A stretch of DNA of 44,883 nucleotides from the NCBI GenBank assembly GCA_030395855.1, contig GCA_030395855.1_4325.1, one strand, 5' to 3'. Positions 41,834 to 43,812 of this stretch are shown here, one piece after another. Every line of letters begins with the position of its first letter. Position 1 is the stretch's first letter. The notes under the pieces were generated by a model. The model ran no database searches. It worked only from the letters and a program-made list of their open reading frames with translations, and had not been told where the DNA came from. The translations under genes and the position numbers were made by a program. Source of the stretch: a phage.

Positions 41834-41944
41834 ATGACAAGTTATGGCTCTTACACACTTGGTGAGCTATATGACGCTTACTCATGGGGTGGTTCGGCAT
41901 CACAATGCGATGCAGACGCAAAGACAGTAATCATTGAGGGTTGA
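41834..41944 (+). CDS. small hypothetical protein (36 aa)
   Basis: Not in ORF track; RBS GAGAG before ATG 41834. Confidence 0.3.
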   Translation: MTSYGSYTLGELYDAYSWGGSASQCDADAKTVIIEG

Positions 41945-41947
41945 ATA

Positions 41948-42187
41948 ATGTTCGGACTAAATGAAGCGATGTTAAACGCAGTCAAGGGTCAGGCCAAAAA
42001 ACTAAACGATAAGTATGAGTCACTAGGTAAGCTGGACCGCAAGAATGACAAGTTGGTTGCTGGAGTTATCACTGAGATTTGGGAGCCTGTTTCTACAGTG
42101 ATTAGCAGGGATCGATTTGTTTGGGTGGCTGGTTATTTGCGAGGCCTGGTTGGTCATGACGAGAATGGGAATAGCCTTTATGAGTGA
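41948..42187 (+). CDS. hypothetical protein (79 aa)
   Basis: RBS GAGGG before ATG 41948. Confidence 0.5.
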   Translation: MFGLNEAMLNAVKGQAKKLNDKYESLGKLDRKNDKLVAGVITEIWEPVSTVISRDRFVWVAGYLRGLVGHDENGNSLYE

Positions 42188-42278
42188 GTTAACAATCTGG
42201 TTTATCGCGGGGCTGATTACTTGGGCTTACTTTTTAATCGTTTGGATGTGGATTGTTAAAAAGAGCTTGCATCACTGA
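42180..42278 (+). CDS. small hydrophobic protein (32 aa, putative membrane peptide)
   Basis: Not in ORF track; single hydrophobic helix IWFIAGLITWAYFLIVWMWIV; overlaps upstream stop. Confidence 0.3.
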   Translation: MSELTIWFIAGLITWAYFLIVWMWIVKKSLHH

Positions 42279-42579
42279 CCGGAATTATCTAACATTAACC
42301 ACGTAGACAAACAAAGCCATCCAAGATGGAGCGGCGCACGGAGCGAAACTACTAAGTCCGTTGCTCATTAAGTAGCGTATGCGGCACACATGGCCAGTGA
42401 GGGTAAGTCGTAAACCTCAATAAGTCGGCCCCAAGTCGAATAGTACGAGTCGACGTAAGGTTGCATAACATCCAAGTATGAGATTTATTCTCTTAGGGAC
42501 TTGTAAGACCTAGCGCAAATAGGCAAATCAAATCGGTCGTTTCAGTCGACTCCGGAGCCGTAACCGGAACCCATTCAAA

Positions 42580-42657
42580 GATCTGCTAGCTCAACAGGAA
42601 AGAAGCAACGACCTTCTAAGTCGTAGGTTACTGGTTCGAATCCAGTGCGGATCGCCA
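42580..42657 (+). tRNA. tRNA-Arg (anticodon UCU), with encoded CCA
   Basis: Folded by eye: acceptor stem GATCTGC/GCGGATC (one G-U), anticodon stem ACGAC/GTCGT, loop CTTCTAA (anticodon TCT at 42615-42617), T arm ACTGG-TTCGAAT-CCAGT, discriminator G, CCA. Confidence 0.8.
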
Positions 42658-42672
42658 ATTAAGGAGTTCATT

Positions 42673-42855
42673 ATGTGGGATGTGAAACTGTCCATTCGCC
42701 TAATGGGCCGCTCATGCAAGAATTGCACTCAAGATTACATCGCGTCAGTTGCCGCAATCAGCGCTGAGGATGCGGTAGCGAAAGTAAAAGAGATGTCAGG
42801 CGCTGACCCTGATACTCACAAATTCCTGGTAGCTTACGTTCGTGAGCGAAAGTAA
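42673..42855 (+). CDS. hypothetical protein (60 aa)
   Basis: Strong RBS AAGGAG before ATG 42673; terminator downstream. Confidence 0.5.
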   Translation: MWDVKLSIRLMGRSCKNCTQDYIASVAAISAEDAVAKVKEMSGADPDTHKFLVAYVRERK

Positions 42856-42900
42856 AAAAGTGTTATACCCTCGTTAAGTTTCGTTTCTCTCGTTGTTTTC

Positions 42901-42925
42901 AGCCCTCGCTTGAGGGCTTTTTTTC
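42901..42925 (+). terminator. intrinsic terminator
   Basis: Hairpin agccctc-gcttg-agggct followed by T7. Confidence 0.75.
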
Positions 42926-42934
42926 GTAAGCATG

Positions 42935-42963
42935 TTGACAATAATATATAGGTGCATTAGTAT
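42935..42963 (+). promoter_or_regulatory. sigma70-like promoter (consensus -35)
   Basis: TTGACA (42935-42940), 17-nt spacer, TAGTAT (42958-42963). Confidence 0.55.
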
Positions 42964-43004
42964 TATCTCATCGGGGCGACCCACTAACCAGAAGGAGATT
43001 CAAA

Positions 43005-43305: not shown

Positions 43306-43812
43306 ATGAGCAAAGCAGCATTAAAGATGGGTGAGGGAAATTTCAAGGCGCTCTACAACAAGAAGTATGGCGATATTGCTATGGTGGCAATCAACCGCAA
43401 GTACACGCCTGAGGAAGTTTTCGATTTCGCAGTGAGATATTTCTCCTGGGCAGAGAGCGAGGCAATCAAAGCTATTGAGACGGCGGCTTTTCAGGGCGTA
43501 GTTAGTGAAAACCTTGTACACAAGCCTCGAGTGTTCACCTTAACTGGCCTGGCGCTCTTCATGGGTGTTAACATCAATAGATTCGCTAAATGGCGTACTG
43601 AGGCTGGATACTCTGATGTGATGGAATTCATTGATAACGTAATCTACGAGCAAAAATATCAGCTTGGCGTTGCAGGCATCATCAACTCCACCATCGTTGG
43701 TAAAGAGCTTGGCATTGATAAGCCGCAGGAGATTAAGATTAGCAACAACTCCACAGCTAACGACGTTGATAGCATGAAGGAAGCGCTAGAGTCTGTGATT
43801 AGTAAGCTATAA
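43306..43812 (+). CDS. terminase small subunit
   Basis: 168-aa ORF, RBS AAAGGAGGA, immediately upstream of the large terminase gene. Confidence 0.6.
   Translation: MSKAALKMGEGNFKALYNKKYGDIAMVAINRKYTPEEVFDFAVRYFSWAESEAIKAIETAAFQGVVSENLVHKPRVFTLTGLALFMGVNINRFAKWRTEAGYSDVMEFIDNVIYEQKYQLGVAGIINSTIVGKELGIDKPQEIKISNNSTANDVDSMKEALESVISKL

What the first reader, a model, noticed from the sequence alone, without database searches (positions are those of the whole stretch)
42279..42657. tRNA-Arg(UCU) preceded by a 300-bp ORF-free region rich in hairpins
A well-formed tRNA-Arg(UCU), decoding AGA, sits at 42580-42657. The 300 bp upstream has no ORF of 60 aa or more on either strand and contains several perfect short hairpins (GTCGA...TCGAC at 42434-42453, TCCGG-agccgtaa-CCGGA at 42551-42570, CTACT...AGTAG near 42343-42370). 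This may be a tRNA leader, a small RNA, or a degraded tRNA array. A phage tRNA may simply match codon usage, or may replace a host tRNA depleted by a defence nuclease.
Basis: seen in the sequence. Interest (0 to 1): 0.5.

Follow-up and report, generated by a model that had tools for sequence, protein, structure and literature searches.

The report
Conserved T1-phage leader RNA carrying tRNA
The tRNA-Arg gene is real and already known in T1-like phages. The "empty" 300 bp before it is a promoter plus a folded non-coding leader RNA found across the T1 phage family, with different tRNAs or none behind it, and its function is unknown and apparently undescribed.

Summary
The window is an Rtp/T1-like coliphage (Drexlerviridae, Braunvirinae).

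**The tRNA.** The tRNA-Arg(UCU) at 42580-42657 is genuine (ARAGORN; Rfam 55.7 bits). It is annotated in relatives. It fits the phage's codon use: AGA and AGG make up 38% of Arg codons.

**The upstream region.** It has no ORF of 60 aa or more, and its overall folding energy is unremarkable (z = -1.15). Comparison with about 30 relatives shows it is not a passive spacer. It contains:
- a sigma-70 promoter (-35 at 42267-42272, -10 at 42290-42295);
- a leader RNA of about 275 nt with four hairpins (H1, H2, Ha, Hb) that are kept by many compensatory changes;
- invariant single-stranded motifs, including GUAA in the Hb loop.

The same leader sits at the same locus in phage T1 itself and in Rogunavirinae, Tlsvirus, Eclunavirus and Nouzillyvirus. 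What follows it varies: tRNA-Arg(UCU), Arg(CCU), Trp+Arg, Arg+Val, Ser(GCU), or no tRNA at all.

**Where else it occurs.** It has no Rfam family and no counterpart in E. coli genomes or plasmids. There is one copy per genome.

**Function.** This is inferred, not shown. I read it as a cis-acting leader or expression platform into which tRNAs have been inserted. A put-like antitermination role is the most interesting reading that remains open.

The parts
42267..42295 (+). Sigma-70 promoter: -35 TTGCAT (42267-42272), 17-nt spacer holding the conserved block CACTGACCGG, -10 TAACAT (42290-42295). It overlaps the last codons of ORF 42117-42278.
   Evidence: The hexamers are invariant or promoter-compatible (TAnnAT) in 11 relatives, even where the upstream ORF differs. 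More distant relatives have TTGACN-17/18-(TGn)TAnnnT at the same distance from the leader's 5' end. The tool calls it in BUCT-XGG-1 (11 of 12, extended -10) and in T1. The window's own promoter falls below the scanner's threshold.
42301..42579 (+). Non-coding structured leader RNA, about 275 nt. The predicted 5' end is (C)ACGUAGAC at about 42301-42303.
   Evidence: No ORF. No Rfam family. Conserved in about 120 phage records and in distant Drexlerviridae. Covariation is shown.
42317..42329 (+). Hairpin H1: CCAUC-CAA-GAUGG. It is followed by AGCG here and by AACG in almost all relatives.
   Evidence: In alignment A7, all 5 pairs carry double changes and 96.8% of cells are paired.
42334..42346 (+). 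Hairpin H2: GCGC-ACGGA-GCGA. The outermost pair is a G.A mismatch in this phage.
   Evidence: In alignment A7, all 5 pairs carry double changes and 93.8% of cells are paired. Stems differ completely between subfamilies: GCAUC/GAUGC, GUGAGA/UCUCAC, GCAGCA/UGCUGC.
42358..42384 (+). Braunvirinae-specific stem CCGU/GCGG closing a 19-nt loop, UGCUCAUUAAGUAGCGUAU. The loop contains a boxA-like GCUCAUUAA.
   Evidence: The stem is 100% paired in 14 sequences, with G-C to A-U and U.G/U-A/C-G variation. The boxA core is matched with 1 mismatch, and only in this subfamily.
42389..42528 (+). Variable hairpin modules, gained and lost as whole units between relatives:
- GGCC...GGCC 42392-42430, enclosing GAGG-GUAAGUCGUAAA-CCUC 42399-42418
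- GUCGA...UCGAC 42435-42454
- GAGA-UUUAU-UCUC 42480-42492
- CCUA-GCGCAAA-UAGG 42509-42523
   Evidence: The alignment shows block indels that coincide with hairpins. The GAGG/CCUC stem becomes GCAAG/CUUGC in BUCT-XGG-1.
42536..42550 (+). Hairpin Ha: GUCG-UUUCAGU-CGAC, preceded by the conserved AUCG.
   Evidence: In alignment A5, 4 of 4 core pairs carry double changes and 100% of cells are paired across 23 distinct sequences.
42552..42567 (+). Hairpin Hb: CCGG-AGCCGUAA-CCGG. The loop's 3' half, GUAA, is invariant.
   Evidence: In alignment A5, stems covary (CCGG/CCGG, CUGG/CCAG, CCGC/GCGG, CCGU/GCGG, GCGGG/CCCGC, GGGGG/CCCCC) and 100% of cells are paired. Model R1, built without the window, hits 42529-42579 at 65.4 bits, E = 2e-14, as the only hit in the window.
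42568..42579 (+). Single-stranded tail AACCCAUUCAAA. This is the fixed junction after which the cargo begins: a tRNA, or a Shine-Dalgarno site plus ORF.
   Evidence: An (A)AUUC(A) tail is conserved in most relatives. It is followed directly by a tRNA 5' end, or by an SD in T1, S2_02, Ec_L1, DanielBernoulli and L076.
42580..42657 (+). tRNA-Arg(UCU), with encoded CCA.
   Evidence: It is annotated in relatives.
42661..42855 (+). SD AAGGAG (42661-42666) and ORF60 (42673-42855). ORF60 is a conserved 60-aa protein of unknown function (phrog_2919) and is the last gene of the unit.
   Evidence: The AF2 model has a beta-beta-alpha-beta fold with no significant PDB match.
42901..42925 (+). Intrinsic terminator AGCCCUCGCUUGAGGGCU plus a U-run, ending the leader-tRNA-ORF60 unit. 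A separate promoter (42935-42963) and the terminase genes follow.
   Evidence: Equivalent terminators occur in T1, BUCT-XGG-1, EC3a and MM01.

Best explanation
The 300-bp "ORF-free region" is a sigma-70 promoter followed by a structured, non-coding 5' leader RNA of about 275 nt. Together they head a short transcription unit: leader, tRNA-Arg(UCU), ORF60, terminator. The unit lies at the boundary between the block of small (presumably early) genes and the terminase and structural genes.

**What is shown**
- The leader is a Drexlerviridae-wide element, in one copy per genome.
- It has a fixed order: 5'-(C)CGUAGAC, a purine-rich tract, H1, AACG, H2, variable hairpin modules, AUCG, Ha, Hb with a ...C(C/G)GUAA loop, and an AACCAUUCA tail.
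- The four hairpins are kept by compensatory substitutions.
- G.U pairs occur only when the + strand is read, so the selected structure is an RNA of this strand.
- The leader does not depend on the tRNA. T1 and other relatives have it directly in front of an SD and ORF. Others have Arg(CCU), Trp+Arg, Arg+Val or Ser(GCU) at exactly the same junction.

**What is inferred**
- tRNA genes were repeatedly inserted or exchanged at the junction between the leader tail and the next SD, using this strong promoter and leader as an expression platform.
- RNase P and 3' processing excise the tRNA and release the leader.
- The tRNA supplies decoding of AGA, and weakly AGG, for a phage that uses these codons about five times more often than E. 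coli does. The host figures are from my own knowledge.
- The leader itself acts in cis on its own transcript or on the transcribing RNA polymerase. The cargo between it and the next ORF can be swapped freely, so I consider a role in transcription or RNA fate more likely than a classical translational operator. Such roles include protection of a long untranslated RNA from Rho and RNases, or modification of elongation towards the downstream terminator and late genes.

The anatomy and distribution are well supported. The mechanism is a guess, at roughly 30% for transcription-level control.
For: **tRNA.**

**Promoter.** Hexamers and spacing are conserved while the spacer and the upstream ORF change, and the promoter has been re-created 7-8 nt downstream in Braunvirinae.

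**Leader structure.**
- Ha and Hb: 187 of 187 cells paired, 7 pairs with double changes, covariation score 0.615 against 0.121 shuffled (0 of 500 shuffles reach it), slid controls no higher than 0.083.
- H1 and H2: 95.4% paired, 10 of 10 pairs with double changes, score 0.713 against 0.147 (0 of 500).
- The P3 stem is 100% paired.
- G.U or U.G pairs are present, and there are no A.C cells.

**Independence from the tRNA and variable cargo.**

**One copy per genome, and recognition by a model built without the window.**

**No host or plasmid counterpart.**

**No known RNA family.**

**No conserved small ORF.** The AUG or GUG in H1 opens different frames in different phages (reading).

**Codon usage.** AGA 142 and AGG 106 of 647 Arg codons.

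**Transcription unit closed by a terminator.**
Against: - No expression data exist for any T1-like phage in the searched literature. The transcription start, the processing and the stability of the leader are all inferred.
- The window's own promoter is sub-consensus (TTGCAT/TAACAT) and is missed by the scanner.
- The whole-region MFE is not unusual.
- My hairpin alignments were made by hand and so are fitted to the structure. They are anchored by invariant flanks, checked by slid controls, and checked again with an independently built covariance model.
- In tRNA-less relatives Hb sits only about 9-12 nt from an SD. That placement would also suit a translational operator.
- A separate promoter (42935-42963) precedes the terminase genes, so read-through from the leader unit is not obviously needed.
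- The element was not detected in the syntenic 2.3 kb of a Klebsiella Webervirus.
Confidence: 0.6

Rival explanations
1. Processive antitermination RNA. The nascent leader, especially the adjacent Ha and Hb hairpins with the invariant GUAA loop, binds the transcribing RNA polymerase directly or through Nus factors. This makes the polymerase read through the terminator at 42901 and the many terminators inside the late operon, as HK022 put, B. subtilis EAR and Tn916 canT RNAs do.
For: - The leader sits just downstream of a strong conserved promoter, upstream of an intrinsic terminator, and at the entry to an 18-kb late operon.
- That operon carries at least 8 strong intrinsic terminators and few consensus promoters. 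A published annotation of T1-like phages counts 18-21 terminators against 5-10 promoters (PMC4070988).
- Function independent of the downstream cargo fits a transcription-level role.
- No Q- or N-like protein is known in T1 (my own knowledge).
- RNA-only antiterminators have precedent (PMC9378689, PMC11658703).
- Braunvirinae also display a boxA-like UGCUCAUUAA in a loop.
Against: - Ha plus Hb span about 32 nt with 4-5 bp stems. put is about 70 nt with two long stem-loops and a triplex.
- There is no similarity to any Rfam family.
- The boxA-like motif is absent from T1 and most subfamilies.
- A separate promoter follows the terminator.
- There is only one copy per genome.
Confidence: 0.15
2. 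Trans-acting RNA. After RNase P cuts at the tRNA 5' end (or an endonuclease cuts in the AUUC tail), the leader accumulates as a stable structured RNA. It then acts as a regulatory sRNA, or as a sponge or decoy for a host protein, possibly a tRNA-directed defence nuclease.
For: - Single-stranded motifs and loop sequences are conserved while stems covary. This pattern is typical of recognition sites.
- The 5'-terminal CGUAGAC is conserved, in the manner of an sRNA seed.
- TAAGTC, identical to U36-C41 of the tRNA anticodon arm, occurs three times in the leader against about 0.07 expected. It is seen in 17 of 24 leaders that precede tRNA-Arg and in 0 of 7 that do not.
- tRNA-precursor spacers acting as sRNA sponges are known in E. 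coli (3'ETS-leuZ; my own knowledge).
Against: - There is no terminator or U-tail for Hfq.
- In tRNA-less phages nothing obvious defines a 3' end.
- The TAAGTC motif is not presented in an anticodon-like stem-loop.
- MM01 keeps the motif although its tRNA arm differs.
- The counts are not phylogenetically independent.
- No target is known.
Confidence: 0.12
3. Translational operator or 5'-UTR control of the downstream small genes. A protein (for example ORF60 or a host factor) binds Hb and the tail next to the SD and sets the translation or stability of the mRNA.
For: - In T1, S2_02, Ec_L1, DanielBernoulli and L076 the Hb hairpin lies 9-12 nt upstream of an SD.
- In Ec_L1 the ORF that follows directly is the ORF60 homologue.
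- ORF60 always accompanies the leader.
Against: - In most phages one or two tRNAs (75-160 nt, excised by processing) separate Hb from the next SD.
- H1 and H2, far upstream, are equally conserved.
- ORF60 has no recognisable RNA-binding domain or fold match.
Confidence: 0.1
4. Passive spacer or decayed tRNA array. The hairpins are chance features, or remnants of former tRNA genes, in an ordinary tRNA 5' leader.
For: - The MFE z-score is only -1.15.
- The locus gains and loses tRNAs.
- TAAGTC repeats resemble the anticodon arm.
Against: - There is family-wide conservation with extensive compensatory change.
- The leader is present without any tRNA in T1 and others.
- There is no second tRNA-model hit at E <= 10.
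Confidence: 0.03

Closest known systems
Phage-encoded rare-codon tRNAs, e.g. the single arginyl-tRNA reported for T1-like phages (PMC4070988) and ileZ-argN-argO in the late-transcript leader of Stx lambdoid phages (the latter from my own knowledge)
   Same: A tRNA reading AGA/AGG in a coliphage that over-uses those codons. It is placed in an untranslated stretch just upstream of late genes and expressed from a host-type promoter.
   Different: Here the tRNA is interchangeable cargo behind a conserved structured leader. That leader also exists without any tRNA.
HK022 put RNAs, and other RNA-only processive antiterminators (EAR, canT)
   Same: A cis-encoded structured RNA downstream of a strong phage promoter and upstream of terminators. 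It has two adjacent stem-loops, needs no dedicated protein, and works regardless of what is transcribed next.
   Different: There is no sequence or size resemblance: Ha plus Hb span about 32 nt, against about 70 nt with a triplex. There are two further conserved hairpins near the 5' end and a variable insert of 0-200 nt between the pairs. There is one copy per genome, and activity is untested.
rrn / lambda nut boxA-boxB antitermination leaders
   Same: Stable-RNA operon leaders made of hairpins plus a single-stranded boxA. The window has UGCUCAUUAA, compared with the rrn UGCUCUUUAA, displayed in a loop.
   Different: The boxA-like motif occurs only in Braunvirinae and carries a mismatch in the core. 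There is no boxB-type GNRA-like pentaloop, and it is absent from T1.
tRNA-precursor spacer RNAs with functions of their own (E. coli 3'ETS-leuZ; the T4 tRNA-cluster stable RNAs) - from my own knowledge
   Same: A non-tRNA RNA co-transcribed with a tRNA and released by tRNA processing.
   Different: This one is a 5' leader rather than a 3' trailer, has no terminator hairpin, and is conserved without a tRNA.
PeSL (promoter-early stem-loop) cassettes of T4-type phages - from my own knowledge
   Same: A conserved promoter-plus-hairpin unit that borders a hypervariable cargo site.
   Different: PeSLs are short, occur in many copies per genome and act as recombination sites. This element is long, single-copy and under selection for RNA structure.

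Membership tests
tRNA (Rfam RF00005) | Cloverleaf scoring above the curated gathering score | tested here: met
   55.7 bits against 29. ARAGORN calls Arg(tct).
tRNA (Rfam RF00005) | Canonical 7-nt anticodon loop and a 3' CCA | tested here: met
   The loop is CUUCUAA and the CCA is encoded at 42655-42657.
Any described RNA family (Rfam 15), for the 300-nt leader | Covariance-model match | tested here: not met
   No hit in 42279-42579 at gathering thresholds or at E <= 10. The only overlap is a HOTAIR_2 chance match at 42226-42295 on the - strand, which touches the first 17 bases.
Degraded tRNA array | Further tRNA-like segments upstream of the intact tRNA | tested here: not met
   The tRNA model finds only 42580-42654 at E <= 10. 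ARAGORN finds one gene.
HK022 put-type antiterminator RNA | About 70 nt, with two long stem-loops (the first forming a triplex), downstream of an early promoter | tested here: not met
   Ha plus Hb span 32 nt with 4-5 bp stems. The put description is from PMC9378689.
HK022 put-type antiterminator RNA | Cis-acting suppression of downstream terminators, dependent on the beta' zinc-binding domain | not testable with these tools
   Needs reporter or in vitro transcription assays.
boxA (NusB/NusE) antitermination leader | Single-stranded GCUCUUUAA-type boxA conserved in the leader | tested here: inconclusive
   The window and Braunvirinae show 1-2 mismatches, in the loop of a covarying stem. T1, Rogunavirinae and others show 3-4 mismatches, which is chance level.
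Drexlerviridae leader element (defined here) | Ha plus Hb plus tail recognised by a model built from other phages | tested here: met
   R1 hits 42529-42579 at 65.4 bits, E = 2e-14, as the sole hit in the window.
Drexlerviridae leader element (defined here) | Promoter, 5' CGUAGAC, H1-AACG-H2, and the syntenic position between the T1 gp59-like ORF and the ORF60/terminase genes | tested here: met
   The window has AGCG instead of AACG and a G.A closing mismatch in H2.
Packaging (pac) site or other DNA-level element | Selection on duplex DNA sequence rather than on one strand's folding | tested here: not met
   Stems change sequence freely but stay complementary. G.U pairs occur with no A.C counterparts. 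GC skew shows no feature here.

The most novel reading that the evidence does not exclude
The leader is a protein-independent, or Nus-assisted, processive antiterminator RNA of the T1 family. Once transcribed from its conserved promoter, it rides on RNA polymerase and licenses read-through of the terminator at 42901 and the string of terminators inside the packaging and structural operon. That would make it the missing late-gene switch of phage T1, with rare-codon tRNAs hitch-hiking in the same leader.
Probability: 0.15. Interest if true: 0.8.

Novelty: new variant of a known kind. Interest (0 to 1): 0.55.

Why it matters
T1 is one of the seven classical T phages, and T1-like phages are frequent in phage collections and as laboratory contaminants. 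How they time late gene expression is still not understood.

A structured RNA with strong covariation support sits behind a conserved promoter at the early/late boundary. It is present from T1 to Rtp-like phages and is absent from Rfam and from the literature I could search. It gives a concrete, testable handle on that regulation.

It also shows that the tRNA locus of these phages is a modular slot behind a fixed leader. This explains why related phages carry Arg(UCU), Arg(CCU), Ser, Trp or Val tRNAs, or none, at one site.

The practical consequence is that automated annotation leaves 120-340 bp blank here in hundreds of genomes.

Tried and rejected
- **Rfam.** Scans at gathering thresholds and at E <= 10 found nothing but the tRNA.
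- **Single-sequence folding.** It was uninformative on both strands.
- **Small ORFs in the leader.** There is none of 20 aa or more on the + strand. The short AUG/GUG frames starting in H1 differ between phages.
- **Host or plasmid origin of the leader.** No match was found in 5,426 E. coli genomes or in PLSDB.
- **Replication origin or skew feature.** GC skew simply follows gene orientation.
- **pac site.** Rejected on covariation and G.U asymmetry. By analogy only, the P22 gp3-type TerS (PF16677) also argues against it, since P22 pac lies inside the terS gene.
- **boxA as a universal feature.** It occurs only in Braunvirinae.
- **Homology to put.** The sizes do not fit.
- **Extra copies of the promoter/operator block or of Ha/Hb in the genome.** None were found.
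- **ORF60 as a clue.** No Pfam hit, a PHROG of unknown function, only close homologues, and an AF2 fold without a significant PDB match.
- **Literature.** Searches for T1/Drexlerviridae transcript maps or for a description of this leader found nothing.
- **IMG/VR scans.** Two 15-mer scans mostly returned chance matches outside Drexlerviridae.
- **Alignment handling.** One MAFFT alignment of the hairpin region was structurally inconsistent. I replaced it with N-padded manual alignments.
Full report
**What the window is.** Megablast of 41900-43000 finds 87 phage records, almost all Escherichia siphophages of Drexlerviridae/Braunvirinae, such as Rtp, IME253, SU57, EC3a, and BASEL AugustePiccard and JeanPiccard. 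The 44.9-kb window is essentially a whole genome. The small terminase (PF16677, phrog_606) starts at 43306, and the structural operon continues from position 1.

**Check of the observation.**
- ARAGORN finds one tRNA in the window, Arg(tct) at 42580-42657 on the + strand. Rfam's tRNA model gives 55.7 bits against a gathering score of 29. CCA is encoded.
- Between the stop codon of ORF 42117-42278 and the tRNA there is no + strand ORF of 20 aa or more, and only 34-39-aa ORFs on the opposite strand.
- As a single sequence the region is not unusually structured. The MFE is -76.1 kcal/mol with z = -1.15 on the + strand, and z = 0.06 on the - strand.
- No Rfam family matches it even at E <= 10.

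**What comparison shows: a promoter.**
- In an alignment of 11 relatives the block AAAAAGAGC-TTGCAT-CACTGACCGGAAnnAnC-TAnnAT-TAAYCACGTAG is almost invariant. This holds even in phages whose upstream ORF is unrelated and ends earlier (AugustePiccard, JeanPiccard, MM01, TR1).
- It reads as a -35 (TTGCAT, 42267-42272), a 17-nt spacer and a -10 (TAACAT, 42290-42295).
- More distant Drexlerviridae have better hexamers at the same distance from the conserved transcript start. These take the form TTGACA/G/T/C, then 17-18 nt, then (TGn)TATATT, TACATT, TAGTAT or TAGATT.
- The scanner calls these promoters in BUCT-XGG-1 (11 of 12 matches, extended -10) and in T1.
- In Braunvirinae a 7-nt insertion has displaced the hexamers relative to the conserved CACTGAC(C/T)GG block. 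A new -35/-10 pair with correct spacing is used instead. This is what selection for promoter function predicts.
- The predicted start is at about 42301-42303, so the RNA begins (C)ACGUAGAC.

**What comparison shows: a structured leader found across the family.**
- I used the flanking genes as anchors. These are the T1 gp59-like 79-aa ORF (41948-42187), which matches 811 records, and the 60-aa ORF60 (42673-42855). With them I collected the same locus from 30 distinct phages and IMG/VR contigs.
- All except a Klebsiella Webervirus carry a leader with the same order of parts: promoter, 5'-(C)CGUAGAC, a purine-rich tract, hairpin H1, AACG, hairpin H2, a variable stretch of 0 to about 200 nt made of further small hairpins, AUCG, hairpin Ha, hairpin Hb whose loop always ends C(C/G)GUAA, and a single-stranded tail (A)ACCAUUCA.
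- In the window these parts are H1 at 42317-42329, H2 at 42334-42346, Ha at 42536-42550, Hb at 42552-42567 and the tail at 42568-42579.
- Stems differ completely between subfamilies but stay complementary.
- For Ha and Hb (23 distinct sequences), 187 of 187 cells pair and 7 pairs show changes on both sides. The covariation score is 0.615 against 0.121 for shuffles (0 of 500 reach it) and no more than 0.083 for slid partners.
- For H1 and H2 (27 sequences), 95.4% of cells pair and all 10 pairs show changes on both sides. The score is 0.713 against 0.147 (0 of 500). The few unpaired cells include two rows that MAFFT misregistered.
- G.U and U.G pairs occur and A.C never does. The structure is therefore selected in an RNA of the + strand, not in duplex DNA.
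- These alignments were made by hand and padded with N, so they lean towards the structure. As an independent check I built a covariance model from ten other phages' Ha-Hb-tail segments. It finds exactly one hit in the window, at 42529-42579, with 65.4 bits and E = 2e-14. It also finds weak hits at the syntenic spot in T1, Tlsvirus, Eclunavirus and Rogunavirinae loci.
- Within Braunvirinae a further stem, CCGN/NCGG (42358-61 with 42381-84), is 100% paired and closes a nearly invariant 19-nt loop. That pairing is seen in only 67% of cells, although some rows are misaligned for it.

**The tRNA is cargo, not the reason for the leader.** What follows the tail differs between phages:

| Cargo after the tail | Phages |
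|---|---|
| tRNA-Arg(UCU) | The window, most Braunvirinae, L074, L077 |
| tRNA-Arg(CCU) | TR1, AN_ECEAS, BUCT-XGG-1, Sf12, C119 |
| tRNA-Trp then Arg(CCU) | Sd1 |
| Arg(CCU) then Val | L033 |
| tRNA-Ser(GCU) | L075; also LF82 phages |
| Arg(UCU) plus an unannotated 99-nt tRNA-like gene | EC3a |
| No tRNA | See below |

- In T1 (NC_005833 7581-7756, between genes 58 and 57), S2_02, DanielBernoulli, Ec_L1 and L076 the tail runs straight into a Shine-Dalgarno site and an ORF.
- In Ec_L1 that ORF is the ORF60 homologue.
- The unit ends in an intrinsic terminator (42901-42925 here; equivalents in T1, BUCT-XGG-1, EC3a and MM01). The terminase genes follow, behind their own promoter.
- The leader has no counterpart in 5,426 complete E. 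coli genomes, where only the tRNA part matches at 78%, or in PLSDB plasmids.

**The tRNA's likely use.** In 68 greedily chosen ORFs (13,383 codons), AGA is 10.6 and AGG 7.9 per 1000 codons. Together they make up 38% of Arg codons; the tape-measure gene alone has 35. From my own knowledge, E. coli uses these two codons at about 2 and 1 per 1000, with correspondingly rare tRNAs. Codon supplementation is therefore the simple explanation. The anticodon loop is the canonical CUUCUAA, as in an E. coli tRNA-Arg(UCU). Nothing in the sequence points to evasion of an anticodon nuclease, and that idea remains untested. A single arginyl-tRNA in T1-like phages is already in the literature (PMC4070988).

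**How the leader may work.**
- Shown: a conserved promoter, a conserved RNA structure with invariant loop and linker motifs, a fixed position at the boundary between the small-gene block and the packaging genes, one copy per genome, and indifference to the cargo that follows.
- Inferred: because one or two excisable tRNAs can be placed between Hb and the next ribosome-binding site, a classical translational operator seems less likely than an effect on transcription or RNA fate. That effect could be protection of a 350-nt untranslated RNA from Rho and RNases, or modification of the elongating polymerase.
- The late operon contains at least eight strong intrinsic terminators and few consensus promoters. 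RNA-only processive antiterminators also have precedent: put, EAR and canT.
- Against this, Ha and Hb are far smaller than put, the boxA-like motif is confined to Braunvirinae, and a separate promoter precedes terminase.
- A released trans-acting RNA is also possible. One oddity bears on it. TAAGTC, identical to U36-C41 of the tRNA, occurs three times in the window's leader against about 0.07 expected. It is seen in 17 of 24 leaders that precede tRNA-Arg and in none of 7 others. However, the counts are not phylogenetically independent, and MM01 keeps the motif although its tRNA arm differs.
- ORF60 gave no functional clue.
- I found no transcript data for any T1-like phage.

**Verdict.**
- The tRNA is real, ordinary and already annotated in relatives.
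It is a promoter plus an apparently undescribed, covariation-supported leader RNA shared by the T1 family, behind which tRNAs are swapped in and out.
- The anatomy and distribution are well supported. The function is open.
- I rate it moderately interesting: a new variant of a known kind, namely phage cis-acting leader RNAs. It would be clearly more interesting if the antitermination reading were confirmed.

Noticed in passing
L002:1613-1711 (KY398841, phage EC3a); weaker copy at L074:1381-1480: An unannotated 99-nt tRNA-like gene lies directly after tRNA-Arg. It scores 41.3 bits on Rfam tRNA (gathering score 29). Its anticodon loop is CUUAUAC (UAU) and it has a variable arm of about 26 nt. 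ARAGORN misses it. The window has no equivalent.
   Followed up: partly
window 42353, 42404, 42421 and 42617 (+ strand): The hexamer TAAGTC is clustered, with three copies in the leader and one in the tRNA anticodon arm (U36-C41). CUACUAAGUCCG (42349-42360) matches tRNA C32-U43 at 10 of 12 positions. The motif tracks with tRNA-Arg cargo across relatives, but not independently of phylogeny.
   Followed up: partly
window 42362-42371: A boxA-like UGCUCAUUAA (compare the rrn boxA UGCUCUUUAA) lies in a 19-nt loop closed by a covarying stem. It occurs only in Braunvirinae.
   Followed up: partly
window 1165, 5856, 6195, 8511, 9417, 12820, 14941, 18406 (+ strand): The packaging and structural operon is punctuated by at least eight strong intrinsic terminators, with few consensus promoters between them.
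   Followed up: no
window 42273-42282, and the equivalent position in relatives: The block CACTGAC(C/T)GG inside the promoter spacer is conserved across most subfamilies, which is unusual for a spacer. It may be an operator for an unknown regulator. In Braunvirinae the promoter hexamers have shifted about 8 nt relative to it.
   Followed up: partly
window 42673-42855: ORF60 (phrog_2919) always accompanies the leader. It has a single CxxC and a conserved His. The AF2 model has a beta-beta-alpha-beta fold (best pLDDT 88.5; the other four models 54-75) and no significant PDB match.
   Followed up: yes
window 42964-43004: The 5' UTR behind the next promoter (42935-42963) reads AUCGGGGCGACCC-ACUAACCAGAAGGAG. 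This loosely repeats the "AUCG, hairpin, AACCA, SD" layout of tRNA-less leaders. The covariance model does not hit it.
   Followed up: no
phage records MG065688 (A110b) and MG065673 (A119), and one "Pseudomonas" record: Records labelled as Campylobacter or Pseudomonas phages match this E. coli T1-like locus. A110b matches at 82.8% DNA identity, A119 only at protein level, and the Pseudomonas record was not listed. The host labels look doubtful.
   Followed up: no
window 42117-42278: A 53-aa hydrophobic ORF, annotated as a putative membrane protein in EC3a, ends inside the leader promoter. Its last codons, KKSLHH*, overlap the -35 region.
   Followed up: no
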